This document shows positions 18,803 through 48,968 of a stretch of DNA of 64,000 nucleotides, piece by piece; positions within the stretch are counted from its first letter, which is position 1, and each line of letters begins with the position of its first letter. Source of the DNA: Fimbriimonadales bacterium. GTDB lineage: Bacteria > Armatimonadota > Fimbriimonadia > Fimbriimonadales > GBS-DC. The DNA is taken from the NCBI GenBank assembly GCA_026003075.1, contig BPGO01000006.1, positions 7,928 to 71,927 of the forward strand, written 5' to 3'. The translations under genes were made by a program, and so were the position numbers. The notes beneath the pieces are model-generated. The model did not search any database, was not told the origin of the DNA, and worked only from the letters and a program-made list of their open reading frames with translations.

Positions 18803-19668
18803 GAGGCTGTTTAGGAAGGTAGATAGGGTATAATCGCAATAGGAGCGTCCAACCTACCTACCAGTCTGACCCAACGCCCCAACAGGGGGCGATCATCGAA
18901 CCCGTCCTCAAACGCGCCCTCTACAAACGCAAACGCAAACCTATCGGCGCACCCCGACGATACAGCCTCTACGACCTGTATCGTGCGATGCTCTATGTGC
19001 TTGTCAACGGCATCCGTTGGCGCGACCTCCCCCGCGACCTGCCCCCGTGGCAAACCGTCTATTACCACTTTCGTCGTTGGCAAGCGTTGGGAGTGTTTGA
19101 ACAGGTACAGCACGCGCTGGTGGCAAGGTCGCGTCGGCGGGAGCGACGCGGACAGCCCAAGACGGTAGCGGTGGACAGTCAGAGTGTGCCGACCACGCAA
19201 AAAGGAGGGTGCGCGGGTACGACGGTGGCAAGAAAATCAAAGGGCGCAAACGGCACATAGTGGTGGACTCACTGGGGAACTTGTTAGGGGTGATGGTGTC
19301 GGGCGCCGATGTGTCGGATGCGCGTGGGGCGTATGGGGTTTTGGACGGGGTGTTGGGTCGGTATCGTTCGGTGCGGGTGGTGATAGCGGACGGAGCGTAC
19401 GATCGGGAGGGTTTGTTGGAGTGGTTGTTGGGGCAGTGGGAGGTGGGTTTGGATTGTGTGGGTCGTTCTGGGGGTAGTGGTTGTTGGGGTACGGCATGCC
19501 GTACCCGTACCGCGTCGTTGGTAGTTGTTGGGGTACGGCATGCCGTACCCGTACTTGTTTGTCTCGGTGTTGGGATATGTTATGCGAAGTGGAGGCGGCT
19601 TGGATCTGGTTGTTTGGGATACAGCGTTTGATGCGTTATCTTGCAAGCAATGGTTCCTAAACAGCCTC
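18803..19668 (+). mobile_element. IS5-family (IS427-group-like) insertion sequence, copy 1 (866 bp), with no intact transposase frame
   Basis: Terminal inverted repeats GAGGCTGTTTAGGAA / TTCCTAAACAGCCTC. OrfA-like frame: ...IIEPVLK...YVLVNGIRWRDLPRDLPPWQTVYYHFRRWQ...DSQSVPTTQKGG. The -1 frame continues RGYDGGKKIKGRKRHIVVDS...ADGAYD. The conserved C-terminal tail EVEAAWIWLFGIQRLMRYLA is in a third frame. There is no canonical start codon upstream of the OrfA homology. Confidence 0.8.
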
Positions 19669-32471: not shown

Positions 32472-33328
32472 GAGGCTGTTTAGGAAGGTAGATAGAGTAT
32501 AAGCGCAATAGGAGCGTCCAACCTACCTACCAGTCTGACCCAACGCCCCAACAGTGGGCGATCATCGAACCCGTCCTCAAACGCGCCCTCTACAAACGCA
32601 AACGCAAACCCATCGGCGCACCCCGACGATACAGCCTCTACGACCTGTACCGAGCCATGCTCTATGTTCTCATCAGCGGCATCCGTTGGCGCGACCTCCC
32701 CCGCGACCTGCCCCCGTGGCAAACCGTCTATTACCACTTCCGTCGCTGGCAAGCGTTGGGAGTGTTTGAACAAGTACAACACGCGCAAGCGCGTCGGCGG
32801 GAGCGACGCGGGCAGCCCAAAACGGTGGCGGTGGACAGTCAGAGTGTGCCGACCACCCAAAAAGGGGGGTGCGCGGGTACGACGGTGGCAAGAAAATCAA
32901 TGGGCGCAAACGGCATATAGTGGTAGACTCGCAGGGGAACCTGTTCGGGGTGGTGGTGTCGGGCGCCGATGTGTCGGATGCGCGTGGGGCGTATGGGGTT
33001 TTGGACGGGGTGTTGGGTCGGTATCGTTCGGTGCAGGTGGTGATAGCGGGCGGAGCGTACGATCGGGAGGGTTTATTGGAATGGTTGTTGGGGAAGTGGG
33101 AGGTGGGTTTGGATTGTGTGAGTTGTTTGGGGTGTGGTGGTTGTTGGGGTACGGCGTGCCGTACCCGTACCGCGTCGTTGGTTGTTGTTGGGGTACGGCA
33201 TGCCGTACCCGTACTTGTTTGTCTCGGTGTTGGGATGTGTTGTGTGAGGTGGAGGCGGCTTGGGTCTGGCTGTCAGGGATACGGCGGTTGATGCGGTATC
33301 TTGCAAGCAATGGTTCCTAAACAGTCTC
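32472..33328 (+). mobile_element. IS5-family (IS427-group-like) element, copy 2 (857 bp), with no intact transposase frame
   Basis: Same inverted repeats and organisation as copy 1, but with scattered substitutions and a 9-bp indel relative to it. It lies inside the duplicated unit. Confidence 0.8.
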
Positions 33329-38987: not shown

Positions 38988-39844
38988 GAGGCTGTTTAGG
39001 AAGGTAGATAGAGTATAAGCGCAATAGGAGCGTCCAACCTACCTACCAGTCTGACCCAACGCCCCAACAGTGGGCGATCATCGAACCCGTCCTCAAACGC
39101 GCCCTCTACAAACGCAAACGCAAACCCATCGGCGCACCCCGACGATACAGCCTCTACGACCTGTACCGAGCCATGCTCTATGTTCTCATCAGCGGCATCC
39201 GTTGGCGCGACCTCCCCCGCGACCTGCCCCCGTGGCAAACCGTCTATTACCACTTCCGTCGCTGGCAAGCGTTGGGAGTGTTTGAACAAGTACAACACGC
39301 GCAAGCGCGTCGGCGGGAGCGACGCGGGCAGCCCAAAACGGTGGCGGTGGACAGTCAGAGTGTGCCGACCACCCAAAAAGGGGGGTGCGCGGGTACGACG
39401 GTGGCAAGAAAATCAATGGGCGCAAACGGCATATAGTGGTAGACTCGCAGGGGAACCTGTTCGGGGTGGTGGTGTCGGGCGCCGATGTGTCGGATGCGCG
39501 TGGGGCGTATGGGGTTTTGGACGGGGTGTTGGGTCGGTATCGTTCGGTGCAGGTGGTGATAGCGGGCGGAGCGTACGATCGGGAGGGTTTATTGGAATGG
39601 TTGTTGGGGAAGTGGGAGGTGGGTTTGGATTGTGTGAGTTGTTTGGGGTGTGGTGGTTGTTGGGGTACGGCGTGCCGTACCCGTACCGCGTCGTTGGTTG
39701 TTGTTGGGGTACGGCATGCCGTACCCGTACTTGTTTGTCTCGGTGTTGGGATGTGTTGTGTGAGGTGGAGGCGGCTTGGGTCTGGCTGTCAGGGATACGG
39801 CGGTTGATGCGGTATCTTGCAAGCAATGGTTCCTAAACAGTCTC
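38988..39844 (+). mobile_element. IS5-family (IS427-group-like) element, copy 3 (the duplicate of copy 2)
   Basis: Identical to 32472-33328 (+6516). Confidence 0.8.
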
Positions 39845-45730: not shown

Positions 45731-47110
45731 TTACGCGCTCGTAGCGATAATTTGCTCGTCTAACTCTGCCAAATCCATAAAGTAGCGCGGCGCCTCGCCT
45801 TTGAGTTTGCTTGCCAGCAGCTTCTGGATCGACAGGCGCAGGTCGGCAGGCTTGATTTCGCGCAGCACGACCTCAAAGAAGCCCATCACAATCAGTGCTT
45901 CCGCCGCGGCAGGGTCAATCCCACGCGAGCGCAGATAAAACAGCTCGTCGGGTTGCACGGGGCCCACCGTCGCGCCGTGCGTGCAGCGCACCTCGTTCGC
46001 GCCGATCTCCAAGTTCGGGATCGTGTATGCCCGTGCATCATCGCTGAGCAGCAAGTTACGGTTCGCCTGATAGGCGTCGGTATGCTGCGCCTTGGGATGC
46101 ACCCGAATCAGCCCCGAGAAGACCGAGACCGCCTCGTCGTGCAGCACGCCTTTGTAGAGCAAATCGCTGCGCGTGTTGCCCACACGATGGTCTTGCAAGG
46201 TACGGAAGTCAAGATGTTGCTTGCCGTCGCCGAAGAACAGCCCCAGCGGGCGCGCTTCGGCGCCTGGCTCGGTCATCAAGTGCTGCAACACGGTACGCCC
46301 CAGTTTCGCGCCCAGCCCCACATTCAGCGACAGCACGCGCGAATCACGCTGCTGCTCATAGTCGATGCTGCTGATGAACAGGCTTTCGCGCCCCATGCGC
46401 TGCATGAGAGTATGACGCAGCTCGCTGTTGGGCTTGTTGAAGACCTCCACCGCGCCCAACACGAACACCGACACGCCCTCTGGCGAGAAAAATGACTGGA
46501 CGATGTTCGCGGCGCTGCCCGTTTCGCAGACGATGACCGTATGTGGTAGGTGCAACCCGGGCGTTTCGAACCAGTGGACAATCTCCATCACGCCTTCTAT
46601 TTGCACATTGCGCGGGATGGAGACATACAGTCCGCTGTCCCACGCAGCCGTGTGGAGGGCGGTGAGTTTGTCGCCGGGGACAGGCGCAAGGCGTCCCAAA
46701 TCCCGCTCCAACCGCTCAGGGTTCTGCGTTAGCACCTCGTGCAGATTGCGCACCTGCACGCCCTGCTCGCGCAGGGCGTCGGGGATATGCGCCTCGAAGC
46801 CGAAACCCGCACGATGATACACCTGTACGACAGGATTCTCGGTCAAGAAGGCAGGCATTTGCGTTGGCGCGTCGCCGCGTGGGGCGTCGCTCCACGCTAC
46901 GGCAGGATAATCTTCCAAATGTAAGGTAGTTATATCCGTATAGCGCCAGTCCTCCTGCTTTGGCGAGGGGAGTGGCAGGCGCAGGAATCGATCAAAGGCT
47001 TCCAAGCGTTGCTGGATATGCCATTCGGGTTCCCCCAGAGCGCGCGCCTGTTGCTCAATCCGTTCGCGCGTCAAGCCCAGGGGAACCTCCTTAAGAACCT
47101 CGGTTGTCAT
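45731..47110 (-). CDS. sufD: Fe-S cluster assembly protein SufD
   Basis: SufD/SufB-fold C-terminal region (...RTLQDHRVGNTRSDLLYKGVL..., EIGANEVRCTHGATVGPV, LFYLRSRGI). ATG at 47110 lies 8 nt after AGGAGG; ATG at 47116 is an alternative. The rest of ORF 45731-47869 runs through a repeat array and is not coding. Confidence 0.85.
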   Translation of the reverse strand: MTTEVLKEVPLGLTRERIEQQARALGEPEWHIQQRLEAFDRFLRLPLPSPKQEDWRYTDITTLHLEDYPAVAWSDAPRGDAPTQMPAFLTENPVVQVYHRAGFGFEAHIPDALREQGVQVRNLHEVLTQNPERLERDLGRLAPVPGDKLTALHTAAWDSGLYVSIPRNVQIEGVMEIVHWFETPGLHLPHTVIVCETGSAANIVQSFFSPEGVSVFVLGAVEVFNKPNSELRHTLMQRMGRESLFISSIDYEQQRDSRVLSLNVGLGAKLGRTVLQHLMTEPGAEARPLGLFFGDGKQHLDFRTLQDHRVGNTRSDLLYKGVLHDEAVSVFSGLIRVHPKAQHTDAYQANRNLLLSDDARAYTIPNLEIGANEVRCTHGATVGPVQPDELFYLRSRGIDPAAAEALIVMGFFEVVLREIKPADLRLSIQKLLASKLKGEAPRYFMDLAELDEQIIATSA

Positions 47111-47130
47111 TCGCATAACCTCCTGAATAC

Positions 47131-47173
47131 TTAGCGTGGCTAAATTATGACACATTCGAGGCGCTGGAGTCAA
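47131..47173 (-). promoter_or_regulatory. sigma70-like promoter of sufD with the same abutting palindromic operator as sufCB
   Basis: On the minus strand: TTGACT (47168-47173), an 18-nt spacer, CATAAT (47144-47149), then immediately TTAGC-N3-GCTAA (47131-47143). Confidence 0.65.
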
Positions 47174-47296
47174 CAGGGGTATCGGTTTTTCGGTGATCCG
47201 GCGGCTGAAAGTCAGCCAATCCCAACCCTCCACGAACGCAAAGGGAAACACAGAAGACACTACTCGCAACCTATCTCTCACGGCGTGCGAGAGACA

Positions 47297-47713
47297 GGGG
47301 TAAGCCCCCCTCTCCCACGCGATGGGAGAGGGGACGGGGGTGAGGGCGACACCACTCCACCACGCGGTGGGAGAAGGGATGGGGGTGAGGGCGACACCAC
47401 TCCACCACGCGATGGGAGAGGGGACGGGGGTGAGGGCGACACCACTCCACCACGCGATGGGAGAAGAGGCAAAGGGGTGAGGGCGACACCACTCCCCCAC
47501 GCGATGGGAGAAGAGGCAAAGGGGTGAGGGCGACACCACTCCACCACGCGATGGGAGAGGGGACGGGGGTGAGGGCGACACCACTCCCCCACGCGATGGG
47601 AGAAGAGGCAAAGGGGTGACGGCAACACCCCTCTCCCACGCGGTGGGAGAAGGGATGGGGGTGAGGGCGACACCACTCCACCACGCGATGGGAGAGGGGA
47701 CGGGGGTGAGGGT
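47297..47713. repeat. tandem array of 9 full and 2 partial 45/47-bp G-rich (plus-strand) hairpin-containing repeats
   Basis: The unit is GGGGTGAGGGCGACACCACTCCACCACGCGATGGGAGAGGGGACG. Unit starts: 47337, 47382, 47427, 47474, 47521, 47566, 47613, 47658. There are three 3'-end variants: GAGGGGACG, GAAGGGATG and GAAGAGGCAAA. The array is intergenic, between the GAF gene stop and the sufD promoter. Confidence 0.9.
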
Positions 47714-47777
47714 ACGATCACTGAAATTTTTGCGAGCCAGAAACCCCGACGGATGCCACACCGCCGTTCGATGCAAT

Positions 47778-48248
47778 CTATACAACCAGTCGGGCGATTC
47801 GTTCCGCGATGACCTCCAGCATCGCCTCGTCCGACTCGTCAAACGCCCCAACCTCAGTGCCGTCGACATCGATCTGTCCGAGGATTCTGCCGCTGTTGGG
47901 GCAGCGGATTAGGACCACGATTTCCGAGCGCGTCTCGAGGTTGCACGCAAGGTAGTTCTCCAGCGTGCGCACATCCTCGACAATTTGGTTCATATTCTCG
48001 GCGACGGCGGTTCCACACACGCCACGCCCCACAGGAATGCGTACATGCTCCGTCGGCGGACCGACATAGGGTCCCAGAACCAACTCATTGCCTTTGAGCC
48101 AGTAGATACCTACCCAGTGGAAATGGGGTAAGCGGTCGTGGAGATACTGCGTGAGGTTCTGGAGGCGTTCTTGCACGGGTGTATCGGACGCCTCCAGAAT
48201 CGCTTCCGCCTCCAGAATCACTTCGGTTGCCAGTGCGTCATCGACCAT
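47778..48248 (-). CDS. GAF domain protein (free methionine-R-sulfoxide reductase-like)
   Basis: HWVGIYWLKGNELVLGPYVGPPTEHVRIPVGRGVCGTA...LACNLETRSEIVVLI...GQIDVD is typical of the fRMsr/GAF family. Confidence 0.8.
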   Translation of the reverse strand: MVDDALATEVILEAEAILEASDTPVQERLQNLTQYLHDRLPHFHWVGIYWLKGNELVLGPYVGPPTEHVRIPVGRGVCGTAVAENMNQIVEDVRTLENYLACNLETRSEIVVLIRCPNSGRILGQIDVDGTEVGAFDESDEAMLEVIAERIARLVV

Positions 48249-48269
48249 AGGCTTTCCCTCATCTCAAGG

Positions 48270-48968
48270 TTAGTTAGATGGCGGGGCGGCTTTTTTCGGC
48301 GCCCACTTCTCCAGCACGACGGCTTTCTCAATCGTGTCGCCGACTCGCACTTTATCGATAATCTCTATCCCTTCGACCACACGCCCGAAGATGACATAGT
48401 TGCCGTCCAGCGGCGGAAGATCTTTCAGGCAGATATAGAACTGGCTGCTTGCGCTGTCGGGGTCTTGGGCGCGCGCCATACCGATAGCACCGCGCTTATG
48501 TTTCAGGTTGTTCGGCTCGAACTTGATATTTTTGCCCGAACCGCCCGTGCCCAGTTGCGGATGTCCCATCGGCAGCGTTTTAGACTGCGGGTCGCCTGCC
48601 TGAATCACGAAATCCGGCACCACGCGGTGGAAACGAATCCCGTCATAGAACTTCTCCTTGACCAGGTTCAGGAAGTTCTCGCTGGTTTTGGGGGCTTCTT
48701 TTAGATCTAACTCGATAATCAGGTCGCCCTTGTCTTTGATGGTCATCTTCACATAGGCGACTTTGGCTTGCTGTTCTGCTTGGCTCACGGTGGTCTCCTT
48801 CTTGTCGTCAGTAGGGCGTGCTGGCTCTTGCGGCGAGTCCTGCACGGCGAGGGGAGTGGTTTCGGTGTCTGCCTGAGTCTGTTCCACAGATTGCGATTGG
48901 CACGCGCAGAGGACAAACACGAGCGCAGGTAGTATCCATCGGTTCAGAGCAGAGAGTTTCTTTCTCAT
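48270..48968 (-). CDS. peptidyl-prolyl cis-trans isomerase (cyclophilin type), lipoprotein
   Basis: Lipobox VLCAC. Cyclophilin core FHRVVPDFVIQAGDP...GTGGSG...AIGMARAQDPDSASSQFYICL...LDGNYVIFGRV. AAGGAGG RBS before the ATG at 48968. Confidence 0.88.
   Translation of the reverse strand: MRKKLSALNRWILPALVFVLCACQSQSVEQTQADTETTPLAVQDSPQEPARPTDDKKETTVSQAEQQAKVAYVKMTIKDKGDLIIELDLKEAPKTSENFLNLVKEKFYDGIRFHRVVPDFVIQAGDPQSKTLPMGHPQLGTGGSGKNIKFEPNNLKHKRGAIGMARAQDPDSASSQFYICLKDLPPLDGNYVIFGRVVEGIEIIDKVRVGDTIEKAVVLEKWAPKKAAPPSN

What the first reader, a model, noticed from the sequence alone, without database searches (positions are those of the whole stretch)
47297..47713. Array of 45/47-bp G-rich hairpin repeats between the GAF gene and the sufD promoter
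There are nine complete and two partial head-to-tail units of GGGGTGAGGGCGACACCACTCCACCACGCGATGGGAGAGGGGACG. Three alternating 3'-end variants occur: ...GAGGGGACG, ...GAAGGGATG and a 47-bp form ending ...GAAGAGGCAAA.

Two units (47297- and 47613-) carry a nearly perfect internal palindrome, CCCCTCTCCCA-CGCG(A/G)-TGGGAGA(G/A)GGG, with a 10-11-bp stem. The other units are degenerate versions with 8 of 11 pairs.

At each junction of the 45-bp variants, the plus strand reads GGG-AGA-GGGG-AC-GGGGG-TGA-GGG (or GGG-AGAA-GGG-AT-GGGGG-TGA-GGG). This fits the canonical (G3+ N1-7)x4 G-quadruplex motif, so the array offers about six phased G4 motifs on the strand antisense to the flanking genes.

The units abut with no unique spacers, so this is not a CRISPR. 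All six frames are open, which is typical of a repeat rather than a gene. The closest known analogy is a REP/BIME-like cluster, but I cannot assign it to a family. It lies about 120 bp upstream of the sufD -35 box, so it could act as an insulator or terminator, a protein-binding platform, or a recombination hot spot.
Basis: seen in the sequence. Interest (0 to 1): 0.65.

Follow-up and report, generated by a model that had tools for sequence, protein, structure and literature searches.

The report
Tandem array of BoxC triplex-motif repeats
The G-rich array between the GAF gene and sufD is nine head-to-tail copies of the long-known but unexplained BoxC ("intrastrand triplex motif") repeat. It grew from a single copy still seen in the closest relative, so it is a young, unstable, non-coding minisatellite rather than a new kind of element.

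Summary
The array is real. Read in its functional register it is nine complete units (window 47307-47717; lengths 45,45,45,47,47,45,47,45,45 nt). Each unit is C-arm, loop, G-arm, 3-5-nt loop, mirror G-arm, 5-nt linker.

That is the architecture of the BoxC / PIT / TM(ECO) intrastrand purine-motif triplex repeat (Holder et al. 2015, PMC4666352).

- **Dispersed family.** The genome, a hot-spring Fimbriimonadales MAG, holds 38 full copies against 0 in Markov controls. It also holds at least five other head-to-tail arrays.
- **Patchy among relatives.** Thirty-one relatives carry 0 to 250 copies.
- **Recent expansion.** At the same site the closest relative has one unit. Three other congeners have none, and there the GAF stop abuts the conserved sufD promoter.
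- **Structure.** Only units 1 and 8 keep a good hairpin.
- **Not found.** No intrinsic terminator and no coding signal. Copy number does not track RAYT-like or DUF559 gene counts.

Most likely this is a non-coding, slippage-expanded minisatellite of a selfish or structural repeat. Any insulating effect on sufD is untested. Interest is modest: a new arrangement and a new phylum for a known, still unexplained repeat.

The parts
47307..47717 (+). Head-to-tail array of nine TM/BoxC-type units (411 nt). Written on the G-rich strand, which is the template strand for the flanking genes.
47307..47351 (+). Unit 1, a canonical full motif: CCCCTCTCCCA-CGCGA-TGGGAGAGGGG-ACG-GGGGTGAGGG-CGACA. It has 11/11 Watson-Crick pairs and 10/10 purine-motif triads.
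   Evidence: (dG -13.2 kcal/mol, z -3.4).
47352..47627 (+). Units 2-7. The C-arm is degenerate (CCACTCCACCA or CCACTCCCCCA, 6-8 of 11 pairs). Units 4, 5 and 7 are the 47-nt form with a GCAAA loop and only three G-runs.
47628..47672 (+). Unit 8, the second unit with an intact C-arm (10/11 pairs, 9/10 triads).
   Evidence: (dG -9.7 kcal/mol).
47673..47717 (+). Unit 9, the last unit. It joins unique flank sequence that is shared with relative G006.
47274..47294 (+). Imperfect palindrome TCTCTC-N9-GAGAGA next to the array. It resembles a decayed TM hairpin and is also present in G006.
   Evidence: read from the sequence.
47778..48248 (-). Upstream gene: a free-standing GAF-domain protein of 156 aa. 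Its stop lies 60 nt from the array.
   Evidence: PF01590, E 8.6e-10.
45731..47119 (-). Downstream gene: SufD/SufB-family Fe-S assembly protein. The true start is MRMTTEV, preceded by AGGAGG.
   Evidence: PF01458, E 1.8e-70.
47144..47173 (-). sufD promoter TTGACT-18-CATAAT with an extended TG. It is conserved in five congeners, including those without the array.
47131..47143 (-). 13-nt palindrome TTAGCCACGCTAA directly after the -10 box, a candidate operator. It is not part of the repeat.

Best explanation
The array is a tandem, head-to-tail expansion of one copy of a dispersed extragenic repeat of the BoxC / PIT / 'triplex motif' (TM) kind.

Each unit carries three blocks: a pyrimidine arm (CCCCTCTCCCA), its complementary purine arm (TGGGAGAGGGG), and after a 3-nt loop a mirror-image purine arm (GGGGTGAGGG). 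On a single DNA strand these three blocks can fold into a hairpin with the third arm laid into its groove, a purine-motif class II intrastrand triplex. The two purine arms alone also satisfy the G-quadruplex rule.

One unit was present in the GAF-sufD spacer of the common ancestor of this species and its closest relative. In this lineage it was amplified to nine units. The likely mechanism is replication slippage or unequal exchange between units, mostly copying a unit whose pyrimidine arm had already decayed.

The array is not translated. It carries no recognisable promoter or intrinsic terminator. It most likely has no selected function of its own. Its main effects would be:
- about 410 bp of strand-asymmetric, structure-prone DNA between the GAF stop and the sufD promoter;
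- a locus prone to further length change.

Shown here: family membership by architecture, dispersal in the genome, the 9/1/0 occupancy in relatives, and the lack of a coding or terminator signal. Inferred: the slippage mechanism, folding in vivo, and the absence of function.
For: **Architecture.** The units match the published pattern CCCTCNCCC-loop-GGGNGAGGG-N3-GGGNGAGGG (PMC4666352; units dissected).

**Dispersed family.** There are 38 full motifs at about 25 loci against 0 in Markov-3 controls. All the loci examined lie between called genes. Orientation relative to neighbouring genes is mixed, 9 sense to 4 antisense.

**Other arrays in the same genome.** Each has its own linker, which points to local amplification rather than repeated insertion:
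- C2:182737-183198, 52 nt x 8.9 copies, 99% matches;
- C7:48131-48612, 55 nt x 8.8 copies;
- further arrays on C8, C4 and C6:149117.

**Orthologous site.** This genome has a 664-bp spacer with 9 units. G006 (98% GAF protein identity) has one unit between the same flanks. G014, G011 and G003 have a spacer of about 70 bp with no unit.

**Paralogous case.** Two CRISPR trailers share an identical 41-nt junction, but one carries 9 units and the other 1.

**Flanks.** The sequences flanking the array are unique in the genome.

**Family behaviour.**
- Copy number runs from 0 to 250 in 31 relatives, and the reversed-pattern control gives 0 everywhere.
- The stem pair next to the core is A-T in this genome (16/17) and G-C in G012 (41/50). 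The hairpin is therefore maintained and copies are homogenised within each genome.
- A closed relative genome also has 4-unit arrays.

**No competing signal.**
- No Rfam family matches.
- No terminator-like site is found.
- The sufD promoter and Shine-Dalgarno sequence are conserved downstream of the array.

**Published context.** The E. coli relatives form a triplex in vitro, show no promoter or terminator activity, and mark variable loci (PMC4666352).
Against: - Seven of nine units lack a good hairpin. In those units a triplex is unlikely and the 'triplex' label describes ancestry, not present folding. What they keep is the pair of mirror purine arms, which would also suit H-DNA, G4 or a binding protein. 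Selection on that part cannot be excluded.
- The strict published regular expression allows a first loop of 3-6 nt. With 9-nt arms this family has 7, because its stem is 2 bp longer.
- G006 is a fragmented assembly, so its single unit could in principle be a collapsed array.
- Absence of function is an inference from the lack of signals and from non-conservation, not a test.
Confidence: 0.78

Rival explanations
1. The array is a phased G-quadruplex array. The selected feature would be four G-runs per unit on the template strand, folding into G4s that regulate transcription or replication near sufD.
For: - Six units match the canonical G4 motif, about 200 times the genome density.
- In seven units the pyrimidine arm has decayed while both purine arms are kept. 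G4 would then face less competition from a hairpin or triplex.
- Holder et al. note that the G-rich part could in principle form a three-tetrad G4.
Against: - The family as a whole conserves the pyrimidine arm and keeps its pairing through compensatory changes. A G4 does not need that.
- The three 47-nt units have only three G-runs.
- NMR of the E. coli homologues showed a triplex, not a G4.
- Family members lie in both orientations relative to genes.
- The array is absent or single-copy in close relatives that have the same promoter.
Confidence: 0.08
2. The array is a selected transcriptional insulator. Its C-rich sense RNA (42% C, 27% G) would act as a Rho loading site, or its hairpins as RNA-stabilising or blocking structures. 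Read-through from the GAF gene would then not override Fe-S-responsive control of the sufD promoter.
For: - In relatives without the array the GAF stop lies about 20 nt from the sufD -35 box, so read-through is plausible there.
- The sense RNA over the array is C-rich and G-poor.
- The genome encodes Rho.
- The sense RNA folds well below shuffles (z -7).
- Family copies also sit at the transcript-distal end of three CRISPR arrays.
Against: - At the CRISPR trailers the opposite strand (G-rich) is the sense strand, so there is no common RNA-level orientation.
- No intrinsic terminator is present.
- E. coli PIT elements showed no terminator or promoter activity (PMC4666352).
- Relatives manage without it.
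- The strong RNA fold is expected for any array of partly self-complementary units.
Confidence: 0.08
3. The array is the gene-less remnant or binding site of a DUF559 (Vsr-like nuclease) cassette. The TM units would be the ends of a small mobile element, and the nuclease would handle, spread or amplify them. This lead comes from earlier notes of the scan.
For: - In relatives, DUF559 genes are bracketed by inverted TM copies: G011:C28 (L174) and G023:C6 (L180). The latter has a five-unit tandem array on one side.
- A TM lies next to DUF559 in G006, G025 and G027.
- This explanation concerns the origin of the repeat, so it is compatible with the main explanation.
Against: - DUF559 gene count does not track TM count in 31 relatives (Spearman -0.24, p 0.19; Fisher p 0.72).
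  - G017 has 250 TMs and no DUF559.
  - The closed genome G012 has 81 TMs and none.
  - G022 has 4 DUF559 genes and no TM.
- The only DUF559 domain in this genome is the C-terminal part of a long methylase-like ORF, with no TM seen beside it.
- No DUF559 lies near the array.
Confidence: 0.2
4. The array is REP/BIME-type elements mobilised by a RAYT (Y1 transposase).
For: It is an extragenic, GC-rich, hairpin-containing, multi-copy repeat, and the genome has one Y1_Tnp gene.
Against: - The Y1_Tnp gene is single-copy in every member of the genus, including those with 0-1 TM copies. The correlation is -0.03.
- No TM lies within 3 kb of that gene.
- G028 has 47 TMs and no Y1_Tnp.
- The units are all head-to-tail, not alternating as in BIMEs.
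Confidence: 0.02
5. The array is an assembly artefact in unit number, or a translated Pro/Ser/Trp-rich extension of SufD.
For: - The 411 nt equal 137 codons, and the minus frame is open from 47869 into sufD.
- MAG assemblies can mis-size tandem repeats.
- G006 contigs often end at TM copies.
Against: - The 47-nt units shift the frame inside the array.
- Relatives have 1 or 0 units, and the promoter, Shine-Dalgarno sequence and start of sufD are conserved downstream of the array.
- The array lies inside a 170-kb contig.
- The same assembly resolves a 462-bp array of 99%-identical 52-nt units inside a 355-kb contig, which suggests long reads.
- A closed relative genome has similar arrays.
Confidence: 0.05

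Closest known systems
BoxC / PIT (potential intrastrand triplex) elements / TM(ECO) motifs of E. coli and other bacteria (Holder et al., NAR 2015, PMC4666352; earlier work by Bachellier and by Hoyne and Maher as cited there)
   Same: - The same three blocks in the same order, with nearly the same letters: CCCTCTCCC ... GGGAGAGGG ... GGGTGAGGG, including the T in the third arm and the CCCTCGCCC 'mismatch' variant.
- Strictly intergenic, with no strand rule and no associated transposase.
- Very uneven copy numbers between close relatives.
- Loci that differ between relatives.
- Some copies in this genome have the short E. coli-type loop, for example CCCTCTCCCTGTGGGAGAGGGGTTGGGGGTGAGGG at C7:48038.
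   Different: - The arms are 10 nt rather than 9.
- The hairpin is lengthened by two pairs around a 4-5-nt CGCG-type loop, so the strict N3-6 rule for the first loop is exceeded.
- The host is a hot-spring Fimbriimonadales (Armatimonadota), whereas the published strict TM(ECO) search found the motif in 262 proteobacterial genomes.
- Units stand in head-to-tail arrays of up to nine. The paper describes only single copies and inverted pairs.
- In this array seven of nine units have lost the pairing arm.
Bacterial minisatellites / VNTR loci
   Same: - Head-to-tail units of 45-47 nt.
- Unit number differs between close relatives (9, 1 or 0).
- Unit variants form a higher-order pattern.
- The array is intergenic.
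   Different: The unit is not locus-specific. It is a member of a genome-wide dispersed repeat family with its own conserved fold.
REP / BIME clusters with RAYT transposases
   Same: Extragenic GC-rich palindromic units that occur singly or in clusters.
   Different: - All units point the same way.
- There is a third, mirror-repeat arm.
- There is no link with the Y1 transposase gene.
DUF559-nuclease cassettes bracketed by BoxC-type repeats
   Same: Relatives G011, G006 and G023 show such cassettes, built with the same repeat family.
   Different: This locus has no nuclease gene, and across 31 relatives repeat number does not follow DUF559 presence.

Membership tests
BoxC / PIT / TM(ECO) intrastrand-triplex repeat | Three blocks on one strand: pyrimidine arm, complementary purine arm, then a mirror-repeat purine arm after a loop of about 3 nt (purine-motif class II) | tested here: met
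   - Unit 1 has 11/11 pairs and 10/10 allowed triads. Unit 8 has 10/11 and 9/10.
- All nine units keep 7-10 of 10 triads between the two purine arms.
- Seven units have a decayed pyrimidine arm with 6-8 of 11 pairs.
BoxC / PIT / TM(ECO) intrastrand-triplex repeat | Published strict pattern CCCTCNCCC N3-6 GGGNGAGGG N3 GGGNGAGGG | tested here: inconclusive
   - With 9-nt arms the first loop is 7 nt and the second 5 nt. With 10-11-nt arms the loops are 5 and 3 nt.
- The blocks match letter for letter, but the loop limits are exceeded because the stem is longer.
- Other copies in this genome do meet the strict pattern, for example C7:48038.
BoxC / PIT / TM(ECO) intrastrand-triplex repeat | Multi-copy, intergenic, and far more frequent than chance | tested here: met
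   - 38 copies against 0 in three Markov-3 controls.
- The reversed-pattern control gives 0 in 31 genomes.
- All loci with a full motif lie between called genes. The gene caller was crude.
BoxC / PIT / TM(ECO) intrastrand-triplex repeat | No fixed orientation relative to genes or strands | tested here: met
   - 9 sense to 4 antisense in co-directional contexts.
- 8 forward and 9 reverse copies in this genome, and 41 and 40 in G012.
- No significant replichore bias in G012, with the origin assumed at dnaA (40/66; Fisher p 0.13).
BoxC / PIT / TM(ECO) intrastrand-triplex repeat | Large copy-number differences between close relatives, and variable loci | tested here: met
   - 0 to 115 copies within the genus, and 250 in a sister genus.
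- Site comparisons give 9, 1 and 0 units at the GAF-sufD spacer.
- Further gains and losses are seen at C1:422730 and C2:120225.
BoxC / PIT / TM(ECO) intrastrand-triplex repeat | Forms a stable triplex as single-stranded DNA | not testable with these tools
   ViennaRNA predicts only the hairpin part. CD and NMR evidence exists only for the E. coli oligonucleotides.
REP / BIME with RAYT | A RAYT gene associated with, and usually flanked by, the repeat, with repeat abundance depending on it | tested here: not met
   - A single Y1_Tnp gene is present in all congeners whatever their TM count (rho -0.03).
- No TM lies within 3 kb of that gene.
- G028 has 47 TMs and no Y1_Tnp.
REP / BIME with RAYT | Clusters built of units in alternating orientation | tested here: not met
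   All nine units are in the same orientation.
CRISPR array | Repeats separated by unique spacers of similar length | tested here: not met
   - Units abut, joined only by a constant 5-nt linker.
- The genome's true CRISPR arrays have a different 37-nt repeat.
G-quadruplex motif (G3+ N1-7)x4 | Four runs of at least three G separated by loops of 1-7 nt | tested here: met
   Six non-overlapping matches in the array; the three 47-nt units fail. Actual folding is not testable here.
DUF559 cassette with BoxC-type ends (scan-internal lead) | A DUF559 nuclease gene lying between inverted copies of the repeat | tested here: not met
   - There is no DUF559 at this locus. The only DUF559 domain in the genome is at C16:45861-46181.
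- The layout is met in relatives G011 and G023.

The most novel reading that the evidence does not exclude
In this genus, BoxC-type triplex repeats would be actively amplifying without any dedicated enzyme. Neither DUF559 nor a RAYT tracks their number. They would act as seeds of hypervariable minisatellites (1 to 9 units) that settle preferentially at the ends of transcription units.

The evidence that leaves this open:
- They sit at the trailer ends of three of four CRISPR arrays, always in the same orientation relative to CRISPR transcription.
- The mirror purine arms are kept even where the hairpin arm has decayed.

On this reading the arrays would be selected, structure-forming (H-DNA or G4) boundary elements, or replication or transcription barriers, rather than junk.
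Probability: 0.1. Interest if true: 0.6.

Novelty: new variant of a known kind. Interest (0 to 1): 0.32.

Why it matters
BoxC / PIT / TM repeats have been known for about thirty years, yet their function and their way of spreading are still unknown.

This locus adds three things:
- **A new phylum and habitat.** The same motif, almost letter for letter, occurs in a hot-spring Armatimonadota lineage. The motif scan also found it in Chloroflexota, Acidobacteriota and Proteobacteria.
- **A new arrangement.** The motif forms head-to-tail arrays, with direct evidence of 1-to-9-unit expansion at one orthologous and one paralogous site. This links the motif to minisatellite-type instability.
- **A natural experiment.** One genus has 0 to 115 copies per genome, with species-specific compensatory changes in the stem. 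Candidate partner enzymes can be tested against this spread. Here neither the RAYT-like gene nor DUF559 followed copy number.

For annotation, such arrays explain spurious long ORFs. Here a 712-codon frame runs into sufD. They also explain contig breaks in short-read MAGs.

Tried and rejected
- **Rfam.** No family reached threshold, either at gathering scores over the whole window or at E up to 10 over the region. Only chance miRNA-like hairpin hits appeared.
- **Intrinsic terminator scan.** None found in 46900-48300.
- **Larger mobile element around the array.** Rejected, because both flanks are unique in the genome.
- **RAYT link.** Rejected.
- **DUF559 link as an explanation of copy number.** Not supported, although local bracketing exists in relatives.
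- **Replication-strand bias.** Tested in the closed relative genome G012 with dnaA taken as the origin. Not significant.
- **Conservation of the CRISPR-trailer junction in relatives.** None found.
- **Coding reading.** Rejected for three reasons: the 47-nt units shift the frame, relatives lack the array, and the sufD start signals are conserved downstream.
- **Literature search.** A search for later work joining BoxC, PIT or intrastrand triplex with DUF559 returned only Holder et al. 2015.
- **Crude gene caller.** The first version over-extended sufD through the array. It was replaced by a run with the repeats masked. Its distances to gene starts are only lower bounds.
Full report
**1. What is there**

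TRF reports a single strong array at window 47315-47712. Its period is 45, with 8.7 copies and 88% matches. A 139-nt higher-order period gives 92%. The repeat finder gives spacings of 45,45,45,47,47,45,47,45.

Cutting the sequence so that each unit starts at its pyrimidine arm gives nine complete units, 47307-47717, totalling 411 nt. Each unit has this layout:

| Part | Length | Sequence |
|---|---|---|
| C-arm | 11 nt | CCCCTCTCCCA (canonical form) |
| Loop | 5 nt | CGCGA or CGCGG |
| G-arm 1 | 11 nt | TGGGAGAGGGG |
| Second loop | 3 or 5 nt | ACG, ATG or GCAAA |
| G-arm 2 | 10 nt | GGGGTGAGGG |
| Linker | 5 nt | CGACA |

G-arm 2 is the mirror image of G-arm 1, with T opposite A.

- Unit 1 is perfect: 11/11 Watson-Crick pairs and 10/10 triads of the kind a purine-motif triplex allows.
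- Unit 8 is nearly perfect (10/11 pairs, 9/10 triads).
- The other seven units share a decayed C-arm, CCACTCCACCA or CCACTCCCCCA, with 6-8 of 11 pairs.

As single-stranded DNA only units 1 and 8 fold better than shuffled sequence (-13.2 and -9.7 kcal/mol). The rest have z-scores above 0.

Six units contain a canonical four-run G4 motif. The three 47-nt units do not.

The + strand has ten stop codons across its three frames, and the three minus frames have one between them. 'All six frames open' is therefore not correct.

**2. Setting**

Both neighbours are on the minus strand.
- A free-standing GAF-domain gene lies at 47778-48248 (PF01590).
- A SufBD-family gene lies at 45731-47119 (PF01458, E 1.8e-70).

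The G-rich strand is therefore the template strand, and the sense RNA is C-rich (42% C, 27% G).

The sufD promoter TTGACT-18-CATAAT lies at 47173-47144. No terminator-like site exists between 46900 and 48300. The whole window has no Rfam match.

A 712-codon open frame runs from 47869 through the array into sufD. This is a by-product of a stop-free repeat, as section 5 shows.

**3. What family it is**

A full-text search for the arm sequences led to Holder et al. 2015 (PMC4666352). That paper describes the 'TM(ECO)' motif 5'-CCCTCNCCC N3-6 GGGNGAGGG N3 GGGNGAGGG-3'. The same motif had earlier been called BoxC, and PIT (potential intrastrand triplex) element. The blocks of the present unit are the same, almost letter for letter.

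The paper reports the following for the E. coli oligonucleotides and loci:
- They form a very stable triplex (Tm 70-82 °C).
- NMR excludes a G4.
- No stable triplex was seen in vivo.
- The elements are always intergenic and have no strand rule.
- They have no promoter or terminator activity.
- No transposon is associated with them.
- Their loci are more variable between strains than control intergenic sites.

It mentions single copies and inverted pairs. It does not mention head-to-tail arrays, Armatimonadota or Chloroflexota.

**4. The family in this genome and beyond**

The genome has 2.6 Mb in 18 contigs. It shares 87% nucleotide identity over 2.6 kb with a contig of a Fimbriimonadales MAG. 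Earlier notes of this scan call it a hot-spring MAG.

It holds 38 full motifs, allowing up to one substitution per block, against 0 in three Markov-3 controls. These lie at about 25 loci. Some are single copies of the form TTG-CCCTCACCCC-NNN-CCCCTCTCCCAC-NNNN-GTGGGAGAGGGG. Others are arrays:

| Locus | Period and copies |
|---|---|
| C2:182737-183198 | 52 nt x 8.9, 99% matches |
| C7:48131-48612 | 55 nt x 8.8 |
| C8:51412-51859 | 81 nt |
| C4:164416-164647 | 39/80 nt, truncated units |
| C6:149117-149286 | 90 nt x 2 |

Each array has its own linker, so arrays arise by local duplication of one resident unit.

With the repeats masked, a crude gene caller places every full-motif locus between genes. 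In co-directional contexts the G-strand is sense in 9 cases and antisense in 4.

In 31 relatives the copy number runs from 0 to 115 within the genus, 250 in a sister genus, and 0 in most of the order. The reversed-pattern control is 0 everywhere.

Arrays of three or more head-to-tail units occur in 12 of 401 sampled genomes of the phylum. They also occur in the closed genome G012, as two 4-unit arrays of 56-nt period.

The stem pair next to the 9-nt core is A-T in this genome (16 of 17). In G012 it is G-C (41 of 50), with four G-T intermediates. The hairpin is therefore kept by compensatory change, and copies are homogenised within each genome.

**5. History of this locus**

The GAF gene was located in 24 relatives, and its downstream region was compared.

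| Genome | GAF-sufD spacer | Units |
|---|---|---|
| This genome | 664 bp | 9 |
| G006 (98% GAF protein identity) | about 300 bp, same left and right flanks | 1 |
| G014, G011, G003 | about 70 bp | 0 |

In G014, G011 and G003 the GAF stop almost touches the conserved sufD promoter. In all five relatives with a comparable spacer, the promoter, the 13-nt palindrome TTAGCCACGCTAA, the Shine-Dalgarno sequence and the start ATGCGAATGA are conserved. The array is therefore neither part of SufD nor needed for its expression.

The flanks of the array are unique in the genome, so it is not part of a larger repeated element.

A second, paralogous example exists. Two CRISPR trailers on contig C2 share an identical 41-nt junction. 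One carries nine units and the other carries one.

Other TM sites also differ between this genome and G006:
- One site is retained in three species.
- At one site a 177-nt segment containing the TM is missing in G006.
- At one site this genome has a TM where G006 has 2.7 kb with a 765-codon ORF.

**6. How it most likely works**

A resident unit was duplicated in tandem. Slippage or unequal exchange between units is the ordinary route; this is an inference. Most rounds copied a unit whose C-arm had already mutated, which explains seven identical decayed arms.

The variant order is A B A C C A C B A, with a 139-nt higher-order period. This indicates several rounds involving multi-unit blocks.

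Published in-vitro data show that such motifs stall DNA polymerase and mark variable loci (PMC4666352). That would favour further slippage.

Nothing in the sequence or in the comparative data indicates a selected function at this site.

**7. Candidate partner enzymes**

A RAYT-like Y1_Tnp gene is single-copy in every congener whatever its TM number. It has no TM within 3 kb.

Earlier notes of this scan proposed DUF559 nucleases as partners of BoxC repeats. I tested this here.
- The bracketing layout does recur in relatives. In G011:C28 the cassette is read in frame inside a ybeY-like ORF. In G023:C6 a five-unit array stands on one side. In G006:C294 it lies inside a murD-like ORF.
- DUF559 count does not follow TM count (Spearman -0.24, p 0.19). 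G017 has 250 TMs and G012 has 81, both without DUF559. G022 has four DUF559 genes and no TM.
- This genome's only DUF559 domain is the tail of a methylase-like ORF at a contig end.

The lead is neither confirmed nor excluded as an origin. It does not explain abundance.

**8. Limits**

Unit number rests on the assembly alone.
  - The same assembly resolves a 462-bp array of 99%-identical units inside a 355-kb contig, which suggests long reads.
  - A closed relative genome has similar arrays.
- G006 is fragmented, and many of its TM copies lie at contig ends. Its single unit carries some risk of collapse.
- The gene caller was home-made.
- Folding as a triplex or a G4 cannot be computed here.

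**9. Verdict**

It missed the known family.

The array is a new arrangement (a head-to-tail minisatellite), in a new phylum, of a known and still unexplained repeat. Interest is modest.

Noticed in passing
Own genome outside the window: G000 C2:182741-183195, C2:209493-209531, C4:164419-164654: TM copies (9, 1 and about 6 units) lie 41-70 nt beyond the last repeat of three of the four CRISPR arrays that share the repeat GTAGCATTCACCCCCAAGGGTGGGTGCCCATTGAAAC. They are always at the trailer end, opposite the conserved 350-nt leader, and always with the G-strand in the sense of CRISPR transcription. Two of the trailers share an identical 41-nt junction. That junction is not found in 30 relatives.
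   Followed up: partly
Relatives: L174 (G011:C28), L172 (G006:C294), L180 (G023:C6): DUF559 (Vsr-like nuclease) genes are bracketed by inverted TM-type hairpins. In G011 the cassette is read in frame inside a ybeY-like ORF, and in G006 inside a murD-like ORF. In G023 a five-unit TM array (71-nt period) stands on one side. Across 31 relatives, DUF559 count does not follow TM count.
   Followed up: partly
window 47131-47143 (minus strand): The 13-nt palindrome TTAGCCACGCTAA sits directly after the sufD -10 box.
   Followed up: partly
G000 C2:120225-120259 versus G006:C31:1142-3894 (L204): This genome has only a single TM at a site where the closest relative has 2.7 kb with a 765-codon ORF and no TM. 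This is an insertion or deletion junction marked by the repeat.
   Followed up: partly
G000 C16:15032-15361 (L169): A single-copy Y1_Tnp (IS200-like) domain gene of about 265 codons is conserved in all 17 genomes of the genus. Its tail looks like a sigma-70 region-4 helix-turn-helix. It may be a domesticated transposase.
   Followed up: no
G000 C1:282867, C1:364769, C5:84546, C7:128854, C12:50090; also beside the C8:51414 array: A second dispersed short repeat, TTGCACGGGGCAGACACGCC, occurs at these sites in 20-21-nt tandem copies and is unrelated to the TM family.
   Followed up: no
window 19021-19047, 32690-32716, 39206-39232: The same 12-13-nt tandem, CGCGACCTGCCCC x 2.2, occurs three times. 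Two of the copies lie in the 6.5-kb tandem duplication reported earlier for this window.
   Followed up: no
G012:C1 (closed relative genome), 81 TM copies: Copies within one genome are nearly identical, and they differ from those of other species by a compensatory stem change (G-C in G012, A-T here). This indicates recent bursts or homogenisation within each species.
   Followed up: partly
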